A DNA stretch of 64,000 nucleotides from Escherichia coli (lineage in GTDB: Bacteria; Pseudomonadota; Gammaproteobacteria; Enterobacterales; Enterobacteriaceae), in the NCBI RefSeq assembly GCF_003334385.1, contig NZ_QOWN01000002.1, one strand, 5' to 3'. A program made the position numbers. Positions 33,001 through 39,000 of the stretch are shown here, piece by piece (positions within the stretch are counted from its first letter, which is position 1; each line of letters starts with the position of its first letter).

Positions 33001-36000
33001 CAGGCATTTGCTACTCTGAAGCAGTAATGTGAGCCCGCCGTGGTGTTGCGCCACGGCGGGTTTAATGTTGTCTGTCATACCAATACACCAGGCTCAACGC
33101 CACCAGCACAAACGCTATCGGTAAACCGAGCGCGGTAACAGGTGCGCTCAACGCAAATAGCAATCCCAGATTGACCATGATTTGATAGCTGATCCAGGTG
33201 AGTAAGCCAACGATGACACCTACAGCGAGACGGCTACCCATCCCTGGCGAGCGCGGGGCGCTAAAGGTAAACGGCACAGCCAGCAAAATCATCGCCAGGG
33301 TCAGGATGGGTTGCCCCAGTTTTTCCCACAGTGCAAGGCGGTATTCGCTGCTGGGTTGCCCGGTTTCCTGCAAATAATGGATGTAATGATTAAGCTGACG
33401 GACAGAAAAAGTATTGCCCGGCATTGATAACTCTTCAAGATCCATACTGGTGAAGGCCGATTGCCAGGCAAGATTATCTAATGTTTCCAGCGTTTCTTTG
33501 CCATTCAGCCATTTTTTATGATTCACACCATGCAGGATCCACGTTTTGTCGTCTTCAATGGTGGCACTGCGTGCATAAATGTAGGATTCGAGCGAGAGAT
33601 CGTCGCGATAATGAAAAATCTCCACGCCCACCGGCTGGCCCTGCTCGTTCAGCGATTTCACCGTCACAAATTCATTACCACGCCTGGCCCACAGCATATT
33701 GCCGGTAATGTCATCGTCCTCCCCCAACGCGGTGGCGGTCGATTTGATTTGCAACGCCTGTTGCTGTAATGGCGACGCTACCCACTCATCTATCGCGCCT
33801 AACGAAACAGTCCACAATATCCCTGCAACCAGCGCCACCAGTGCAATACGGAAGATAGAAAACCCCATGCTGCGAATGGCGGTAAGCTCACTGTTTTTCG
33901 ATAACTGCCCCAGGCCGACAATCCCTCCCAATAAGGCGATAAATGGCGAAAGTTCGACCAGTGTGCGCGGTAAGGTCATTAGCACCACCAGCACCGCCTG
34001 AGTCCAGCGATAACCGCCCGGGCTGACATCATCCAGTTCGTTAATCAGGTTGAAGGTGGTAAAAAGCGGCAGCAATAGCCCTGCGGCGGCGGCAAAACCG
34101 AGAAAGAGATGACGGATTAAATAGCGGCTGAAAACATTCATCGGGAAAATTTCTGCAGCAAAGAGAAGTCGCGTGCGACCAGCATCAGCAGGCCCATTAG
34201 CATGAGTCCGGGTACTAACCACAAACCAGGAATGAGGGGAATCGCGCCGTTAGCCACCAGCGTACGGCAGACGTCACCGCCATAAAAAATGGCAATAAAC
34301 AGCAACGTCAGTGGCAATAACGTTGAAAATCGCCCTTGCCGCGGTTTTACCCGACTTAATGAAATGGCCAGCAGCGCCATCAACAATGCGGTCAGGCCAC
34401 GGCTTTGCCGCCATTGCAGTTCGGCATGATCGGCTGGAAAGACGGAGCGCGCCAGCTCCGTGACCGATTTCGCTTTGCGTTTGACGTTAGGGCTTTGATC
34501 CAGCGGATTCAGATGTAATTGCAGATTACGGTAGATCTGTTCGTTGTCATCACGCCCCTGATGATCGATAAGATAGGCAGTGCCGTTGTGCAACATAACG
34601 GTCGGTTTCTCGGGTGATGGGTCAACCACATCAACCGAACGGGCGCGGAAAATGCGGGTTCGATTGGCAGTAGAAGTATAAATCAGCGCGTCAGTCAGGC
34701 GATTATTATCCTGATCAACCGTCTGCGAAAGGATCATTCGTCCGTTATCGTTAGTGTTAAATTTCTTTGCCCGCAACTGGCGAACATCCAGCTCCGACTG
34801 CGACTGCTGCTCCAGTTGATAAATCTGCGCATAAGCCCACGGACGACCATACATCGACAGAAGGGTGACAAAAATACTTAGCGGTATCGCCAGATAAAGA
34901 ACGGCTTTGTACAAGCGTCCCGGACTGCCCCCCGCCGCAGAGATAGCGGTAATTTCCGAGTCGGTATACATCTGCCCTAGCGTCACGCCAACTGACACAT
35001 ACAGACCAACAGGTAACAACATCTCCAGTGCAATCAGTACTTTGTAGAAAACGATATCCAGCACAACATCAAGAGCTAATGTCCCATTTGCCGCTTCGGT
35101 CAGATAACGCTGTGCGGAGTAGCTGGCGAAAATAAAGATCAGAAAACCGACGATAATCAGCACCAGACGGCGCGTACCACGCATGATGTAGTGTTCAACC
35201 AGCTTCATCTCACTAACGCCCTCAATCCTTTGAGTTTTTTATTCATTGATCAGTTTCTGCGCCAACGCAATGACATGATCTACCTCTTCCGGCGTCAGGC
35301 TGCCGTCCTTTGCCCACTGAATTTGCCCGGCTTTATTCAGCACCAGAATGGTTGAACTCTGCTCCGGCAAGCGCCAGGCAACGCGTCCCTGTCCATTGCC
35401 GTCAATAACGAATTGCGCCCACGGATAGCGGCGTTTATTTTTTTCGATTTTGCCAACAACAAAATAGCCAGTACCAAAGATGGCATCATCGGTGTTCACA
35501 ATGGTGGTGGGCTGAAAACGATCCTGCGGAAAGTTTGCCGCTTCAACCGCTTTAATTAACAGTGAGTTCTTTTTCTTCGCCGACTTACGCCCGGCGATAT
35601 ACTGAATAATGCGGACTTTTCCCGCTAATTGTGTGCTGTTCCACTTTTGGTAGTGAATTTCGTCGTCGCTATTCAGAAGCAGCTCGCCGCCTTCCTGGAT
35701 ATAAACAGGGGTAACCGTTTTGCCAGTGACGAAATTGTGTGCCTGCACACCCGGGGCTAAGAGCATGATAATCAACGCAATAATCAAACGAGATGACATC
35801 ATTGCTCCGGCTATAGCGGAAAACGCGAAATCAGCAGCTCTAAGCGCTGACGAATATCGCTATCCAGCGCCACCGGTGCATCATACGACTGGCGGTTTTC
35901 CATATCATCCGCCACCATGTCGTCGTGTTTATCTCCCATCAGGCCATTAATGGCGGCGAGGAAGCGGGATATCTGTAACGCCTCTTTATTTTCAGGATCA

Positions 36001-39000
36001 AGCGATCTTAAGGTGTCGTAATAAGAAACCTGCTGGCTGATGATTTTTCGCACATCATGAAATTCCCTACCGGTTAGTCGCGGTTTGGCAATAATCTCTT
36101 TCAGGGTATGCATTTGCTTTTGCCGATAGGCAATAAAACTGCTTACGCTTTCTAACTGGCTATGGCGTAATGAATAGTTCACCAACGACCAGACCGGAGA
36201 GCTTAAATAAATCCGTAACAGGTTGCCGTAATACGACACAATATTTTTCTTACCGTTACGAAAGCCGTCCTGAAAACGCCCCAGAAAAACGGTCGTTTTG
36301 CCGAATAAAAATCCGGCCTGATGCTTCTTTAAATACAGCCGTTGCGCAAAACGCAGGTGCTTGTAGCGCGCTCGCATGTATTTAAATTGTTTGCGCTCAT
36401 CAGCAGTCAGCTCATCGCCTTTGGCTTGTTTGCGAACTAAACGCAGTAACTCCTGACGATCAACGCCATTGAGCCAGAATTGCAGGCATAACGCGTAATT
36501 ATCATGAATGATTTCGGTGGTACAACTTAGTGCAATAGTCGGCGGCAAACTAACCTGTGCATCAACGACATCATCTTCTTCAATCGCAACAAATAGACGC
36601 TCGCTCGCCTCAAGCGGGAAATATTTTCTCATCATCAGGATTTCTCTCCGGCTGCGTTATAAAGCAAGGAATGGCGCTGAAAAAATGCCTTTAAGGTTGG
36701 AATTAACGAGAGCGCCACGTCCAGACATTGCCCACCGAAGTAAGCAAACGCTGCTCCCAGCACACCAAACAGATGACAGAACATGAACAGCAATACGATG
36801 TAGCCGATTGAGGCGATGGTTTGCGCCACGAGAAAAGCGCGCTGTTTTCCCGCCATCAATAGCAATGACTCCTGAGGGAAGCCCAGCATCGAAATCACAA
36901 TTGCGCCCAGCATCACCTGAATCAGGTCATACGCTTCGAGATACTTAACGCCAAACACCAGCGAAATGAGCGGCTTGCCGACGATCAACACCGCGAGCGC
37001 CACCAGAATACCGATTCCGCCCGCCAGTAAACCGGACTTCACACCTAACAACCACGGTCTGGTGGTGCGCGGATCTAAACGCATCACCTCTGGGTAAAAA
37101 CTTTTACCCAGCAAACCCGCTGGCGTTCCGGCGGCGTCGAAGAATGTCATGGCGATTTTAAATAACCCGGCGGCAGCGGGTCCTAACACGATCCCCACCA
37201 ACACTGTGCTGCACGAGTTACGCGCCGACCAGATGGAGTGGGCAATGTTGGTTGACCAGACAAAACTCCACGCGCCTTTAATGTATCGGGCAGACTCAAA
37301 CAGATTCAATTTGAAGGCGTTATGGATATTTCGGCGGCGTAATTCGCGCGCGGCAAACCACCAGTACATGGTGCCGCCAACCAGATTCGACACGTACCAG
37401 GCAATAACAAAACCCGCAAAACCAAAGTCAAAATACCAGGCTACGACGCTCCCCGCTGCGCGCAGAAAAGGTTTCGTCGCCTGCTGTACAGCAATTAAAT
37501 CGAAGCGATCTACCGCACGCAGAATGCCGGTCGGCGTGGAGGAAGCCATTGAAGGAATGAGCGTGCAATAGAGCGCTGCCAGCCAAAAACTTTGGTCATC
37601 CAGACCTAATGAATGGGAAAGGAATGGCAGTAAGGCAATGCCACCGACAATCGCCACCGCGCCGCTGACGATATCCAGCGAGAAGGAAAATGAGACGACA
37701 TTGCGGAATTGCTGCGGATTATTGTTGGTTAATGCTGGTGTTCCGTACTGAACCACCAGTTGCCATGTCTGAAACTTAATAAAATCGCTGATCGACTTGG
37801 CGTACGATTGCACAATCACCAGTACGCCAAACATGGCGGGCGTCATCCCTTTACCGGCACACGAGAGCGCCAACAGACCCAGCAAGGCGCTCACGACATT
37901 ACTGGAGCCTAACCAGGCGCTATTGCGAATAATGGTGCGAAACGCGCCATCTGCAAACCAATGTTTGATGTTAAAACCCGCCAATTCAGCCTGACCTTAT
38001 CGTTGATAGTAAAAAGTATCCCGCCAGCCTTAAGTTAAACTTCGGCGGTCAGAAACGATGGCAACCAGAGAAACCGCCTTCTGTGCCTGTTCCAGCACTT
38101 CGCTGTAGGGCGCTCTGGAATCAATCTCAAGAATTTTTGTGCCGTTATAGCCAATCTTCGACATGACACCGATTTTGTCCTGCAGCTCGGCATAGTCATG
38201 GTCAGGCTTGCGGGAGATGGCAGTCTCAATATCAATGCCCAGGCGAATAATTAATTCCGGGCGATATTGCGCCATTTGTTGGTATAAACGCCGTTCGCGC
38301 TGCGCCAGAAACATGCTGATTTTCCCGGTCGCACGTTCGACGCCAATCCCCGGTCCATCATAATAAAAGCCCGAAATTTCAGCCTGCGGGAAGCGATCGC
38401 TGACCACCAGAACGCCACTTTGCGCCAGTCGCTGAACCTTGCGTAGATTCGCCATTCTTCGCAGCGAGAAGCAGTACATAATCACCGCCGCCCATAGCGC
38501 CGGAGATTTGGTTTTCATGCTTTGGGTTTTCGAGGATTTGGCCGCCAGTCGCCGTTCCAGCCAGACGCCAACCAACGGCAATCGTTTGATTTTGTCGCCG
38601 TCTTCGCCGGAGAGCAGCCCCAGATAGCGCCGCTCGGTTTGCCAGTGTTGTTGCAGCGATTTCACCAGGTCGGTGGTCAGTGTGGATTTACCGGTGCCAT
38701 CACACCCGACCACCGCAATCAGCCCCGGAATGTAGTTGGGCTGCGGCGCGGTTGTACTATTAACAGTTTGAGTTTGTAGTGCATCCATTCGTTAAATCAT
38801 CCCCTATCCATTTTGGTGATCAGGAAAGCGCGGCGTGAATTGCGCGTAGTGACGCTTGCAGAATTTCATCGGCGGGGTGTCGCCCATCCAGTTCAAGGAT
38901 CTTTGCGCCATTGAATGTCAGTTGCGGCGTAACGGCGATTTTTTCCTGTAACGCTGCCAGTTGGTGGTCAGGTTTACGCGCAAACGCGGTTTGTTCATCA

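What the first reader, a model, noticed from the sequence alone, without database searches (positions are those of the whole stretch)
35239..36635. YtfJ paralog and an unrecognisable 274-aa protein embedded in the export operon
The 187-aa protein matches conserved blocks I recall from the periplasmic protein YtfJ and carries a signal peptide, which suggests a periplasmic lipid-handling accessory role. The neighbouring 274-aa basic protein has no recognisable motif.
Basis: partly seen in the sequence, partly recalled or inferred. Interest (0 to 1): 0.5.

Follow-up and report, generated by a model that had tools for sequence, protein, structure and literature searches.

The report
Two accessory genes, E. 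coli sphingolipid locus
Two uncharacterised genes in an E. coli sphingolipid gene cluster that K-12 lacks turn out to be a cysteine-free, exported thioredoxin-fold YtfJ paralog and a divergent CHAD-fold (phosphate-polymer-binding type) protein tied to a lipid flippase and three kinase-like proteins, which gives testable leads but no shown function.

Summary
Both ORFs are real, conserved genes under purifying selection on the minus strand (35239-35799/35802 and 35811-36635). They lie in the E. coli accessory locus already described as a sphingolipid (spt) locus. K-12 has lost this part of the locus to an IS5-associated deletion.

The 186/187-aa product is a full-length YtfJ-family protein (Pfam 2e-59; 54% identical to K-12 YtfJ) with a Sec-type signal peptide. 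Its model has a TlpA/DsbE-type thioredoxin fold but no cysteine, so it is not a redox enzyme.

The 274-aa gene is not mainly part of the LptF/G export unit. Across 80 loci from three proteobacterial classes, nearly all have it next to the YghQ flippase (usually overlapping stop/start) and/or thymidylate-kinase-like YghR/S/T. YtfJ2 and LptF2/G2 join it only in Enterobacterales.

Best reading, inferred and not shown: a cytoplasmic phosphate/anion-binding accessory of a head-group/flipping module, plus a periplasmic non-redox accessory. In this window the pathway's reductase gene carries a private nonsense mutation.

The parts
35239..35799 (-). ytfJ2: the YtfJ-family paralog (186 aa from the second ATG, as in RefSeq; 187 aa if started at 35802)
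   Evidence: ORF. RefSeq CDS of 561 nt. Pfam PF09695 E 2e-59. TIGR01626 212 bits against a cut-off of 151. 54% identity to K-12 YtfJ. dN/dS 0.10-0.12.
35740..35799 (-). Predicted Sec signal peptide of YtfJ2 (MSSRLIIALIIMLLAPGVQA, cleavage before an invariant His-Asn-Phe)
   Evidence: Hydrophobic core with KD19 1.88. A20 and H21 are invariant in 22 family members. Coordinates checked. No dedicated predictor was run.
35566..35616 (-). YtfJ2 strand plus the invariant motif VRIIQY-IAGRKSAKKKN. It lies at the strand-to-helix turn where TlpA/ResA-type thioredoxin folds carry CxxC. There is no cysteine.
   Evidence: Invariant G70 R71 S73 A74 K75 N78. 0 Cys in the mature protein of 19 of 22 members. 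Secondary structure E62-68 / H71-74 / H77-88 in the model. The equivalence to the CxxC position is inferred from topology, not from a residue-level superposition.
35811..36635 (-). chadL: the 274-aa divergent CHAD-fold protein (RefSeq 'hypothetical protein'; UniProt 'Ybl138' / 'Uncharacterized')
36351..36383 (-). CHAD-like half 1 basic helix, K85-Y-M-R88-A-R-Y-K92-H-L-R95, in register with the CHAD motif HxxRxxxRRxR
   Evidence: R88 is invariant; K92 and R95 are conserved in at least 90% of 83 sequences. The HMM alignment to RcCHAD 6qv5 pairs fKhiRarfKqLRfA with LHQMRVGVRRLRSA. The matching residues of CtCHAD and SsCHAD bind polyP (PMC6537752).
36267..36281 (-). CHAD-like half 1 motif G119-R-F-Q-D123 (family consensus MGxLQDA)
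   Evidence: D123 is invariant and G119 conserved in at least 90%. It pairs with the half-2 motif MGxxHD in the hhalign of the N-half against the C-half.
36033..36059 (-). CHAD-like half 2 basic helix, H193-D-V-R196-K197-I-I-S-Q
   Evidence: H193 and R196 are invariant; K197 is conserved in at least 90%. It aligns to 'aHrtRiatKRgRY' of RcCHAD.
35922..35948 (-). CHAD-like half 2 motif N230-G-L-M-G-D-K-H237-D238
   Evidence: N230, M233, G234, H237 and D238 are conserved in at least 90%. This peptide pattern ([IL]NGLMGxxHD) was specific enough to retrieve 131 relatives from 100,044 genomes.
36633..36637 (-). TGATG: the yghQ stop codon overlaps the chadL start codon by 1 nt, with GGAGAG 8 nt upstream (translational coupling)
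   Evidence: Sequence. An overlap or abutment (-4, -1 or 0 nt) is found in 51 of 66 loci that have both genes.
36635..37984 (-). yghQ: MOP/Wzx-type flippase ('lipopolysaccharide biosynthesis protein'), immediately upstream of chadL
   Evidence: Weak MOP flippase match in NCBIfam. It is found immediately upstream of chadL on the same strand in most of the 80 loci (66 have both genes in this arrangement).
38030..39533 (-). yghR (38030-38788) and yghS (38820-39533): thymidylate-kinase-like P-loop paralogs at the head of the same gene string
   Evidence: The family profile's best PDB hits are thymidylate kinases (E 7e-7, full length). Intergenic gaps are 31 and 45 nt. They are co-conserved with chadL.
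39707..40399 (+). yghT: third P-loop paralog, transcribed divergently
33062..35208 (-). lptF2 (34138-35208) and lptG2 (33062-34141): LptF/LptG paralogs downstream of ytfJ2
   Evidence: There is a 30-nt gap after ytfJ2 and a 4-nt overlap between the two genes. The Caulobacter homologues are required for sphingolipid export and use LptB (bioRxiv 10.64898/2026.04.12.717747).
33030..33064 (.). Strong bidirectional terminator hairpin between the convergent spt operon (+) and the lptG2 end of the minus-strand gene string
   Evidence: 16-bp stem with 10 G-C pairs. Sequence.
28976..33027 (+). Convergent ceramide-synthesis operon aasR - cerR(epi) - acpR - spt. cerR carries a TAG stop at 31021-31023 in this window.
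   Evidence: BL21 AasR, AcpR and Spt were characterised in PMC9386255. The nonsense mutation is documented.

Best explanation
The two ORFs are functional accessory genes of the E. coli sphingolipid locus (yghO, aasR-cerR-acpR-spt, lptG2-lptF2, ytfJ2, chadL, yghQ-yghR-yghS, yghT). They belong to two different sub-modules.

(1) The 274-aa protein is a soluble, cytoplasmic, basic, divergent CHAD-fold protein: two four-helix bundles with the CHAD-type basic H/K-xx-R-xxx-K/R helices. It is translated in step with the MOP-type flippase YghQ. It is inherited together with the thymidylate-kinase-like P-loop proteins YghR/S/T in alpha-, beta- and gamma-proteobacteria of lineages that make sphingolipids or carry the genes for them.

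The most likely mechanism is that it uses the CHAD-type basic surface to bind a phosphate-rich anionic ligand. That ligand would be either the phosphorylated head-group intermediate made at the inner face of the inner membrane by YghR/S/T, or a phosphate donor. The protein would then act as an accessory or scaffold subunit that couples head-group phosphorylation to flipping by YghQ.

(2) The 186-aa protein (YtfJ2) is exported by Sec. It is a thioredoxin-fold protein with no cysteine, so it has no redox activity. In the loci examined it occurs only in the Enterobacterales form of the locus, which is also the form with LptF2/G2. It most likely binds the flipped, anionic lipid or its head group in the periplasm. 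The invariant basic GRxSAKKKN turn and the conserved Trp/Asp residues are candidate contacts. It would assist hand-over to the LptF2/G2(-LptB) extractor.

Shown: the identity, fold class, conservation, gene linkage and predicted compartment of both proteins. Inferred: every ligand and every step of the mechanism.
For: Locus identity.

CHAD fold:
- AF2 model with pLDDT 97.
- The best PDB profile hit is CHAD 6qv5 (E 0.002), in two collinear segments that pair the basic motifs.
- Pfam CHAD is the only recurring family among relatives: 3 of 83 at E<=1e-3 and 22 of 83 at E<=0.1.
- AFDB orthologues with TM 0.93-0.96 are named CHAD.
- The two halves align in motif register.
- The invariant residues R88, D123, H193 and R196 fall on the CHAD motif positions. 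The matching residues were shown to bind polyP (PMC6537752).

Module membership:
- Nearly all of the 80 loci have chadL next to yghQ and/or yghR/S/T; 66 have yghQ immediately upstream on the same strand. Loci from Sphingomonadales, Acetobacteraceae and a betaproteobacterium have no ytfJ2 or lptF2/G2 within 10 kb.
- The yghQ stop and chadL start overlap or abut in 51 of 66 loci.
- Independent fusions join an APH-type kinase to two chadL-like domains.
- YghR/S/T are thymidylate-kinase-like.

Compartment: no signal peptide or TM segment in chadL; a Sec-type leader in YtfJ2.

YtfJ2:
- Family membership.
- 0 Cys.
- Present only in Enterobacterales loci, always directly after chadL.
- Canonical ytfJ has a sigma-E-recognised promoter and is listed as 'unknown, periplasmic protein' (PMC4447067).

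Purifying selection on both genes.
Against: - No experiment or ligand-level computation supports any binding partner.
- The E. coli protein itself does not reach any Pfam CHAD score, and its family profile does not match E. coli's own CHAD protein YgiF.
- The classic CHAD neighbourhood (polyP kinases or phosphatases, CYTH) is absent. YghR/S/T show no PPK2 similarity.
- Some distant relatives have N-terminal signal-like segments, so a cytoplasmic role may not hold for the whole family.
- The YtfJ2 model has only moderate confidence (pLDDT 69.7, pTM 0.67), and the family has no solved relative detectable by sequence.
- Thioredoxin folds are not known lipid carriers.
- None of the papers found and read shows that E. 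coli makes a sphingolipid from this locus under native expression.
- In this particular window cerR has a premature stop, so the pathway may be inactive in this strain.
Confidence: 0.5

Rival explanations
1. The 274-aa protein is an enzyme rather than a binding or scaffold subunit. One possibility is a phosphotransferase or phosphohydrolase that uses the invariant His/Asp/Arg residues (H105, D123, H193, H237-D238) to add, transfer or trim a phosphate-containing head group on ceramide.
For: The invariant and near-invariant residues are the kind expected in a catalytic or metal site (R88, D123, H193, R196; H105, H237, D238, Y251). The head-group chemistry of this locus is unknown, and no obvious transferase is encoded beside the three kinase-like proteins. 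The CHAD paper quotes Iyer & Aravind's original proposal that the CHAD histidines could act as phosphoacceptors (PMC6537752).
Against: No characterised CHAD domain has catalytic activity. Solved CHADs showed no conserved metal site and act as polyP binders (PMC6537752). The conserved G..QD / G..HD motifs are ordinary CHAD family features, repeated in both halves.
Confidence: 0.2
2. The 274-aa protein is an ordinary polyphosphate-granule-binding CHAD protein ('phosin'). Its position in the sphingolipid locus has no functional meaning.
For: CHAD fold and conserved basic motif positions. Stand-alone second copies exist outside the locus in Pluralibacter.
Against: Linkage to yghQ and yghR/S/T persists across Enterobacterales, Rhodanobacteraceae, Sphingomonadales, Acetobacteraceae and a betaproteobacterium, with overlapping stop/start codons. 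This is far more than chance synteny. The 80 genomes retrieved are dominated by lineages that make sphingolipids or carry the genes for them. No polyP enzyme is nearby. Even the stand-alone Pluralibacter copy sits beside a lipid acyl-hydroxylase (OlsC/LpxO-like).
Confidence: 0.08
3. YtfJ2 has nothing to do with lipid export. Like canonical YtfJ, it would be a general envelope-stress periplasmic protein, for instance a metal- or small-anion-binding protein that uses the invariant N-terminal histidine of the mature chain, and it was simply duplicated into the locus.
Against: YtfJ2 is a distinct orthologue group. E. coli YtfJ2 is closer to the YtfJ2 of Serratia, Hafnia and Erwinia loci (59-71%) than to E. 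coli YtfJ (54%). It always sits directly after chadL inside the locus in 45 loci. The locus repeatedly carries dedicated paralogs of housekeeping envelope-lipid proteins (LptF/G, and ACP as shown in PMC9386255).
Confidence: 0.15
4. YtfJ2 is a periplasmic thiol-disulfide oxidoreductase or peroxiredoxin of the TlpA/DsbE/ResA type.
Against: There is no cysteine in the mature protein, either here or in K-12 YtfJ, and none in 19 of 22 family members. The CxxC-equivalent turn is an invariant GRxSAK motif.
Confidence: 0.02
5. YtfJ2 is the Enterobacterales stand-in for LptC2: the membrane-anchored first rung of the Lpt bridge, which only Caulobacter encodes in its sphingolipid locus.
For: LptC2 appears restricted to Caulobacter species. 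The Enterobacterales loci have YtfJ2 next to lptF2/G2 instead.
Against: YtfJ2 has a cleavable leader rather than a TM anchor, and a thioredoxin fold rather than a beta-jellyroll. It therefore cannot extend the Lpt beta-jellyroll bridge in the known way.
Confidence: 0.05

Closest known systems
CHAD domain proteins (Pfam PF05235): CtCHAD 3E0S/6QV7, RcCHAD 6QV5, Streptomyces PptA 6RN5, the C-terminal domain of E. coli YgiF
   Different: The E. coli protein scores below every Pfam/NCBIfam threshold and does not match YgiF at profile level. His is replaced by Lys in the first motif, and the second motif lacks the +7 Arg. The neighbours are a MOP flippase and thymidylate-kinase-like proteins in a sphingolipid locus, not polyP kinases, phosphatases or CYTH domains. 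PolyP binding is untested.
E. coli YtfJ (b4216) / Haemophilus HI0045 family (PF09695, TIGR01626)
   Same: Full-length homologue, 54% identical, with the same length, signal peptide, invariant motifs and lack of cysteine.
   Different: It is a separate orthologue group that lives inside the sphingolipid locus directly after chadL, and it occurs only in Enterobacterales loci. Canonical ytfJ is a stand-alone gene with a sigma-E-recognised promoter. Neither paralog has a known function.
TlpA/DsbE(CcmG)/ResA/peroxiredoxin-type periplasmic thioredoxin-fold proteins
   Different: No CxxC and no cysteine at all. No sequence similarity is detectable even with a family profile. So this is a resemblance of fold, not of chemistry.
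Caulobacter crescentus sphingolipid locus (CC_1152-CC_1168: ceramide genes, CpgA-D head-group genes, CC_1166 flippase, LptF2/G2/C2)
   Same: Same overall logic: ceramide synthesis genes (aasR, cerR, acpR, spt, bcerS/yghO), a Polysacc_synt-type flippase and LptF/G paralogs are clustered together.
   Different: Caulobacter has no chadL, no YghR/S/T and no YtfJ2. Its head-group genes are a DAGK-like ceramide kinase CpgB, CpgA/C and the cytidylyltransferase CpgD, and it has LptC2. The E. coli-type head-group module is therefore a different, uncharacterised one.

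Membership tests
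CHAD domain (PF05235) | All-alpha fold of two four-helix bundles, superposable on solved CHAD domains | tested here: met
CHAD domain (PF05235) | Internal pseudo-twofold sequence repeat of the two bundles | tested here: inconclusive
   hhalign of the N-half against the C-half of the family alignment gives E 0.0015 but probability 17%. The register pairs fK..RA.fK.LRFA/MG.LQDA with FH..RK.ISR/MG..HD.
CHAD domain (PF05235) | Conserved His/Arg/Lys residues (HxxRxxxR-type helices) that form the basic ligand surface | tested here: met
   R88, H193 and R196 are invariant. K92, R95 and K197 are conserved in at least 90% of 83 sequences. They are aligned in register with the RcCHAD motifs. The equivalent CtCHAD residues H253/R256/R260 bind polyP (PMC6537752). 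Substitutions: His to Lys at position 85, and Ser at the +7 position of half 2.
CHAD domain (PF05235) | Significant match to the Pfam CHAD profile | tested here: not met
   The E. coli protein gives no CHAD hit even at E<=10. Among 83 full-length relatives, 3 match at E<=1e-3 (best 2.5e-5) and 22 at E<=0.1. The family-profile hit to PDB CHAD 6qv5 has E 0.002. The family profile does not match YgiF. Membership is therefore as a remote, divergent subfamily, reached through intermediates and structure.
CHAD domain (PF05235) | Binds inorganic polyphosphate | not testable with these tools
   This needs purified protein (GCI or ITC, as in PMC6537752).
CHAD domain (PF05235) | Genomic association with polyP-metabolising enzymes (PPK, PPX, CYTH/TTM) | tested here: not met
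   The neighbours in the 80 loci are the MOP flippase, thymidylate-kinase-like YghR/S/T, sphingolipid genes, two-component systems and RND pumps. The YghR/S/T profile hits thymidylate kinases, not PPK2.
YtfJ_HI0045 family (PF09695 / TIGR01626) | Full-length profile match above the curated cut-off | tested here: met
   Pfam E 2e-59, covering model positions 3-159 of 160. TIGR01626 212.1 bits against a cut-off of 151.1.
YtfJ_HI0045 family (PF09695 / TIGR01626) | Collinear similarity to E. coli YtfJ, including the exported N-terminus | tested here: met
   54% identity over 184 of 186 residues, E 1e-75. The Ala|His-Asn/Gln-Phe junction is conserved.
TlpA/DsbE/ResA thiol-disulfide oxidoreductases | Thioredoxin-like fold | tested here: met
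TlpA/DsbE/ResA thiol-disulfide oxidoreductases | CxxC (or a peroxidatic Cys) active site | tested here: not met
   0 cysteines in the protein. The family-wide turn is IAGRxSAKKKN.
LptC-type Lpt bridge component | N-terminal TM anchor plus a periplasmic beta-jellyroll | tested here: not met
   YtfJ2 has a cleavable-type leader and an alpha/beta thioredoxin fold. chadL is all-helical with no TM segment.
Sphingolipid-locus LptF2/G2 export unit (as defined in Caulobacter) | Conserved co-occurrence and co-orientation with lptF2/lptG2 | tested here: inconclusive
   YtfJ2 co-occurs with lptF2/G2 in the Enterobacterales loci, but it stays with yghQ-chadL when lptF2/G2 are divergent or displaced. chadL occurs without any lptF2/G2 within 10 kb in Sphingomonadales, Acetobacteraceae and Rhodanobacteraceae.

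The most novel reading that the evidence does not exclude
The conserved yghR/S/T - yghQ - chadL module builds and flips a sphingolipid with an oligophosphate (pyro- or triphosphate-type) head group. The three thymidylate-kinase-like paralogs would act on ceramide phosphate the way their archetype acts on dTMP: they would phosphorylate a phosphomonoester and so extend a phosphoanhydride chain. The CHAD-like protein would recognise that chain, as CHAD domains recognise polyphosphate, and present it to the flippase. In Enterobacterales, YtfJ2 would receive the highly anionic head group in the periplasm for LptF2/G2-dependent export. This would be a new class of bacterial anionic membrane lipid. 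It would also be the first functional assignment for the YtfJ family and for a non-polyP role of CHAD.
Probability: 0.1. Interest if true: 0.85.

Novelty: new variant of a known kind. Interest (0 to 1): 0.45.

Why it matters
About three quarters of complete E. coli genomes (4178 of 5426, including B/BL21) carry this locus, but K-12 does not. Its genes have therefore escaped the usual functional genomics.

Work in Caulobacter has shown that LptF/G paralogs export anionic sphingolipids. The same work states that the periplasmic and outer-membrane steps, and the situation in other taxa, remain open.

This analysis makes three points:
- The E. coli-type locus carries a different, uncharacterised head-group module: three thymidylate-kinase-like proteins, a flippase and a CHAD-fold protein. 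This module is shared with Sphingomonadales, Acetobacteraceae and Rhodanobacteraceae.
- It gives the 'hypothetical' 274-aa protein a fold and a set of candidate ligand-binding residues to mutate.
- It offers the first contextual clue for the function-less YtfJ family: an exported, non-redox thioredoxin fold placed beside a lipid exporter.

If the inferred roles hold, they would extend CHAD domains from polyphosphate biology into membrane-lipid biogenesis. They would also identify new components of bacterial sphingolipid head-group synthesis and transport. If they do not hold, the genes are still conserved accessory genes whose loss-of-function phenotypes are easy to test.

Tried and rejected
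(1) PolyP-kinase partner idea. CHAD genes classically sit beside PPK/PPX enzymes, and PPK2 has a thymidylate-kinase-like fold. I therefore tested YghS and YghT singly and as a 19-sequence family profile. Only thymidylate/adenylate-kinase-type matches appeared and no PPK2 match. Rejected.

(2) Direct profile comparison of the family with E. coli's own CHAD protein YgiF. No significant match; the only alignment was a spurious one in the CYTH domain. This is a negative result and is kept as evidence against close CHAD membership.

(3) Homology of the two proteins to the Caulobacter head-group or 'unrelated' genes. CpgB is DAGK-like, CC_1167 is glycerophosphotransferase-like and CC_1157 is a HIT protein. 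There is no counterpart.

(4) Redox function for YtfJ2. Rejected because there is no cysteine.

(5) Sequence-level link of the YtfJ family to any solved structure. There were no useful hits with the single sequence and none at E<=10 with a profile.

(6) Defence-system, phage and RNA-family explanations. No PADLOC, PHROG or Rfam hits.

(7) The 'GspM' label on relative P0032. It is a chimera of residues 1-222 with a GspM fragment, from a strain-level deletion.

(8) The SEED label 'TPR repeat protein'. Neither Pfam nor the fold search supports it.

(9) Internal promoters and terminators. Counts are not above the shuffled expectation; only the 33030-33064 hairpin is strong.

(10) Literature searches for the BL21 locus tags or Ybl138, and for 'CHAD domain' together with 'sphingolipid'. 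No papers were found. A Novosphingobium glycosphingolipid genome paper does not mention these genes.

(11) The search for related loci with the 83-sequence alignment failed because no stretch was conserved enough. It was repeated with a 12-sequence alignment.

Full report
WHAT IS THERE. The window is E. coli chromosome. It is 100% identical over 35000-36900 to strains LH13-b and LR-58-1, and 99.9% identical to strain B. The finding covers two adjacent minus-strand ORFs, 35239-35802 (187 aa) and 35811-36635 (274 aa). RefSeq annotates the same CDSs in strain B as 'YtfJ family protein' (561 nt, so it starts at the second ATG, window 35799) and 'hypothetical protein' (825 nt).

The annotated gene order is:
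- glcC | yghO(-)
- fatty acyl-AMP ligase, NAD epimerase/dehydratase, ACP, spt (+)
- lptG-like, lptF-like, YtfJ family, hypothetical, 'LPS biosynthesis protein' (yghQ), yghR, yghS (-)
- yghT(+) | pitB | gss

The minus-strand genes are tightly packed:
- The yghQ stop codon overlaps the ATG of the 274-aa ORF by one base (TGATG), with a GGAGAG Shine-Dalgarno 8 nt upstream.
- 8 nt separate the 274-aa ORF from the first ATG of the YtfJ paralog (11 nt from the RefSeq start).
- 30 nt separate the YtfJ paralog from the lptF-like gene.
- The lptF-like and lptG-like genes overlap by 4 nt.
- The gaps yghS-yghR and yghR-yghQ are 31 and 45 nt.

A strong bidirectional hairpin at 33030-33064 closes both convergent operons. 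Promoter- and terminator-like hits inside the string are not above the shuffled expectation. A single seven-gene transcript from the 173-bp yghS-yghT intergenic region is therefore likely, but it has not been shown.

THE LOCUS IS A KNOWN ONE. This is the E. coli 'rhodobacterial' sphingolipid locus. The BL21(DE3) acyl-ACP synthetase AasR (ECD_02851), the specialised ACP AcpR (ECD_02853) and Spt (ECD_02854) have been expressed and assayed (PMC9386255). In Caulobacter, LptF/LptG paralogs encoded in the sphingolipid locus form a complex, bind the housekeeping LptB, and can be deleted only when anionic sphingolipid is not made. The authors of that work draw the E. coli UTI89 locus in their Fig. 2B, and they state that the periplasmic and outer-membrane steps are unknown and that LptC2 appears restricted to Caulobacter species (bioRxiv 10.64898/2026.04.12.717747).

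None of the papers I could search discusses the two genes of this finding. The reason is visible in K-12. An IS5 (insH9) lies between yghO and a truncated yghQ, and everything from aasR to the 274-aa gene is missing. The region is present in 4178 of 5426 complete E. coli genomes.

BOTH ORFS ARE REAL GENES. The 274-aa protein has 344 close database relatives, all about 274-280 aa: E. albertii 88%, Pseudocitrobacter 74%, Hafnia 66%, and Serratia/Sodalis/Pantoea about 61%. It also has 212 cluster representatives at E<=1e-3, full length down to about 25% identity. Nei-Gojobori dN/dS against three other Escherichia lineages is 0.066-0.081 for the 274-aa gene and 0.096-0.119 for the YtfJ paralog. 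The neighbouring genes give 0.03-0.12.

THE YtfJ PARALOG (YtfJ2).
- Family: it matches Pfam YtfJ_HI0045 end to end (E 2e-59) and TIGR01626 above its curated cut-off (212 against 151 bits). It is 54% identical to K-12 YtfJ over 184 residues (the K-12 gene was fetched).
- Export: it has a Sec-type leader (MSSRLIIALIIMLLAPGVQA), followed by a His-Asn-Phe that is invariant or nearly so in 22 family members.
- Separate orthologue group: it is more similar to the YtfJ2 of Serratia, Hafnia and Erwinia loci (59-71%) than to E. coli's own YtfJ.
- No redox site: the protein has no cysteine, and neither does mature K-12 YtfJ. After the strand V62-I68, where such folds carry CxxC, the family has the invariant basic turn IAGRxSAKKKN. 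That positional equivalence is my inference from topology.
- No solved relative is detectable by sequence, even with a family profile.
- Literature on canonical ytfJ: its promoter is listed as sigma-E-recognised, and the product as 'unknown, periplasmic protein' (PMC4447067). A ydgH ytfJ double mutant showed no compound fitness defect (PMC11705850).

THE 274-aa PROTEIN IS A DIVERGENT CHAD-FOLD PROTEIN. On its own it hits nothing in Pfam, NCBIfam, PDB sequences, PADLOC or PHROGs. An 83-sequence family alignment shows invariant R88, D123, H193 and R196, and near-invariant K92, R95, H105, G119, K197, N230, M233, G234, H237, D238 and Y251.

Four lines of evidence point to CHAD:
- Sequence intermediates: scanning every member against Pfam gives one recurring family, CHAD PF05235 (3 of 83 at E<=1e-3, 22 of 83 at E<=0.1).
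- Profile against solved structures: the family profile's best PDB hit is the Ricinus CHAD domain 6qv5 (E 0.002). It aligns in two collinear segments, pairing fKhiRarfKqLRfA with LHQMRVGVRRLRSA and FHelRKiisR...MGdlHD with aHrtRiatKRgRY...LGrhnD.
- Predicted folds: Foldseek against AFDB50 finds orthologues with TM 0.93-0.96 in Sphingomonas, Zymomonas, Acetobacter, Komagataeibacter, Commensalibacter and Pseudomonas veronii that UniProt already names 'CHAD domain-containing protein'. The E. coli entries are 'Uncharacterized' or 'Ybl138'.

The two halves of the family align to each other in motif register (E 0.0015, probability only 17%). This fits the pseudo-twofold CHAD architecture. In solved CHADs the H-xx-R-xxx-R residues line a basic surface that binds polyphosphate, and mutating them lowers affinity (PMC6537752). 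Here the equivalents are K85/R88/K92/R95 and H193/R196/K197.

Evidence against close membership: the E. coli sequence never reaches a Pfam score, and the family profile does not match YgiF, E. coli's short-type CHAD. I therefore file it as a remote, divergent CHAD subfamily. It is soluble, basic (pI 9.27), and has no signal peptide or TM segment.

WHICH GENES DOES IT TRAVEL WITH? A scan of one genome per species (100,044 genomes) with two conserved peptide patterns returned 131 relatives, of which 80 loci were kept. They come from:
- many Enterobacterales;
- Rhodanobacteraceae (Luteibacter, Rhodanobacter, Dyella);
- Sphingomonadales (Sphingomonas, Sphingobium, Sphingopyxis, Novosphingobium, Altericroceibacterium);
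- Acetobacteraceae (Acetobacter, Komagataeibacter);
- a betaproteobacterium, Carnimonas and some MAGs.

These are overwhelmingly lineages that make sphingolipids or carry the genes for them. That statement rests on PMC9386255 and PMC11324152 for several genera and on my own knowledge for the rest.

I ran tblastn of the 13 E. coli locus proteins against these loci and did a de novo clustering of neighbours. The results:
- The constant partners are the YghQ flippase, immediately upstream on the same strand, and one to three YghR/S/T paralogs. The exceptions are a few loci: the stand-alone second copies in Pluralibacter (L020, L028) and one short contig.
- In Sphingomonadales the operon is typically yghS/R - yghT - yghQ - chadL, next to a two-component system, with no spt within 10 kb.
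- In Rhodanobacteraceae the operon is merged with aasR-cerR-acpR-spt.
- In Acetobacteraceae a GT1 glycosyltransferase is adjacent.
- The yghQ stop and chadL start overlap or abut in 51 of 66 loci (-4 nt in 36, -1 in 9, 0 in 6). I chose the start codon nearest the stop, which biases this count somewhat toward small gaps.
- YtfJ2 and LptF2/G2 occur only in the Enterobacterales loci. There YtfJ2 always follows chadL, even where lptG2-lptF2 are divergent or displaced (Sodalis, Erwinia, Rosenbergiella).

An independent hint that the domain works with kinases comes from metagenomic proteins that fuse an APH/choline-kinase-type domain to two chadL-like domains. At profile level YghR/S/T are thymidylate-kinase-like (PDB E 7e-7, full length; Pfam Thymidylate_kin in 3 of 19 members). 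They carry an inserted hydrophobic-plus-basic segment and show no PPK2 similarity.

The Caulobacter locus has none of these genes. Its head-group genes are the DAGK-like ceramide kinase CpgB, CpgA/C and the cytidylyltransferase CpgD, and its two 'unrelated' genes are a glycerophosphotransferase-like protein and a HIT protein.

HOW IT MOST LIKELY WORKS (inference). The locus has three functional layers:
- ceramide synthesis (yghO/bCerS, aasR, cerR, acpR, spt);
- a cytoplasmic-face head-group and flipping module (yghR/S/T, chadL, yghQ);
- in Enterobacterales, a periplasmic and extraction layer (ytfJ2, lptF2, lptG2, presumably with housekeeping LptB as in Caulobacter).

I propose that chadL binds a phosphate-rich anionic ligand on its CHAD-type basic surface. 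The ligand would be the phosphorylated lipid head group or a phosphate donor. The protein would act as a stoichiometric accessory that couples the kinase-like proteins to the flippase. YtfJ2 would be a non-redox periplasmic binding protein that acts on the flipped lipid or its head group beside LptF2/G2.

My confidence that the fold and module assignments are right is about 0.85. My confidence in the specific mechanism is about 0.35-0.4. Rival readings are listed separately with what would refute each: chadL as an enzyme; chadL as an unrelated polyP 'phosin'; YtfJ2 as a general envelope-stress or metal-binding protein; YtfJ2 as an oxidoreductase (refuted); YtfJ2 as an LptC substitute (fold mismatch).

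The most novel reading not excluded is an oligophosphate-type sphingolipid head group. In that reading the thymidylate-kinase-like enzymes extend the phosphate chain and the CHAD-like protein recognises it. I give this about 10%.

COMPARISON AND NOVELTY. YtfJ2 is already correctly named by RefSeq. Its new aspects are the cysteine-free thioredoxin fold and its locus-specific paralogy. The CHAD nature of the 274-aa protein is implicit in automatic UniProt names for distant orthologues, but it is absent from E. coli annotation and from the literature I could search. A SEED label ('clustered with yghQ') shows that the linkage had been noticed. A CHAD-fold protein embedded in a lipid head-group/flippase module, rather than in polyphosphate metabolism, is a new variant of a known kind. 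Interest is moderate: the leads are concrete and testable in a tractable organism, but no function is shown.

CAVEAT FOR THIS STRAIN. The cerR (3-ketosphinganine reductase candidate) gene in this window has TGG changed to TAG at codon 121 (window 31021-31023), relative to strain B. A 41-mer centred on the change matches none of 5426 complete genomes, whereas a control 41-mer 40 nt away matches 2563. The best whole-gene matches are 99.9%. The allele is therefore private to the source strain or is a sequencing error. If it is real, the pathway is probably off in this strain, although the two genes studied here are intact.

Noticed in passing
window 31021-31023 (within 30661-31575, + strand): The NAD-dependent epimerase/dehydratase gene of the spt operon (the candidate 3-ketosphinganine reductase, cerR) has an in-frame TAG (W121*) where strain B has TGG. 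The allele is absent from all 5426 complete E. coli genomes searched. It is either a private nonsense mutation or a sequencing error, and it may silence the pathway in this strain.
   Followed up: yes
L088 (K-12 MG1655 3124000-3136000), corresponding to window ~28600-36900: In K-12 an IS5 (insH9) lies between yghO and a 3'-truncated yghQ. The stretch aasR, cerR, acpR, spt, lptG2, lptF2, ytfJ2 and chadL is missing, which explains why these genes have no b-numbers or K-12 functional data. O157:H7 strain 493/89 also matches only the yghQ end of the query.
   Followed up: partly
L045, L049, L052, L053, L056, L058, L066, L077 (next to the chadL homologue): In Rhodanobacteraceae, some Novosphingobium and a betaproteobacterium, a tripartite RND efflux system (membrane-fusion protein, RND pump, outer-membrane factor) sits beside chadL, in the place where Enterobacterales have ytfJ2-lptF2-lptG2. 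It may be an alternative export route.
   Followed up: no
P0370, P0384, P0388 (L083, L085, L086); P0243; L045 and L052 around 10001-11760: Domain-architecture variants of the chadL family. Some have an APH/choline-kinase-type domain followed by two chadL-like domains, with a hydrophobic N-terminus. Luteibacter has tandem duplicate genes, and there is one fused tandem protein. Some distant members (P0297, P0357, P0360) have signal-peptide-like N-termini.
   Followed up: partly
L020 5946-10804 (Pluralibacter gergoviae, second copy); also L028: A stand-alone second chadL copy lies outside the sphingolipid locus. Within about 5 kb upstream are an OlsC/LpxO-like lipid acyl 2-hydroxylase, a BCCT (choline/betaine-type) transporter and a class-III aminotransferase. 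A similar hydroxylase (cluster c9) follows yghR in Rhodanobacteraceae and in L080.
   Followed up: partly
window 38030-40399 (yghR, yghS, yghT): The three P-loop paralogs are thymidylate-kinase-like, with GxDGxGKS, DRYPQ and ARKPDH motifs. All carry an inserted hydrophobic stretch followed by a basic amphipathic stretch (for example ALVIYLLSCWRAYKFRKML). This looks like a membrane-interface anchor and would suit a lipid substrate.
   Followed up: partly
window 35731-35739 (YtfJ2 residues 21-23, HNF): The residue predicted to become the mature N-terminus of every YtfJ-family member examined is an invariant histidine. This is reminiscent of N-terminal-His metal sites, and Sco-type copper chaperones are among the fold neighbours. 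It remains unexplained.
   Followed up: no
H1 (NZ_CP100525.1, strain LH13-b 729479-732156); P0032: Strain-level disruptions of the 274-aa gene exist. In LH13-b an IS1 element lies inside the matched region, with two 'hypothetical protein' fragments annotated. One database entry (P0032, labelled GspM) is a chimera of residues 1-222 with a GspM fragment.
   Followed up: partly
L038 (record titled Martelella alba BGMRC 2031, Scaffold21_1): A genome labelled as an alphaproteobacterium carries the complete Enterobacterales-type locus (same gene order, 60-78% identity, including ytfJ2 and lptF2/G2). This suggests a mislabelled or contaminated assembly, or a recent transfer.
   Followed up: no
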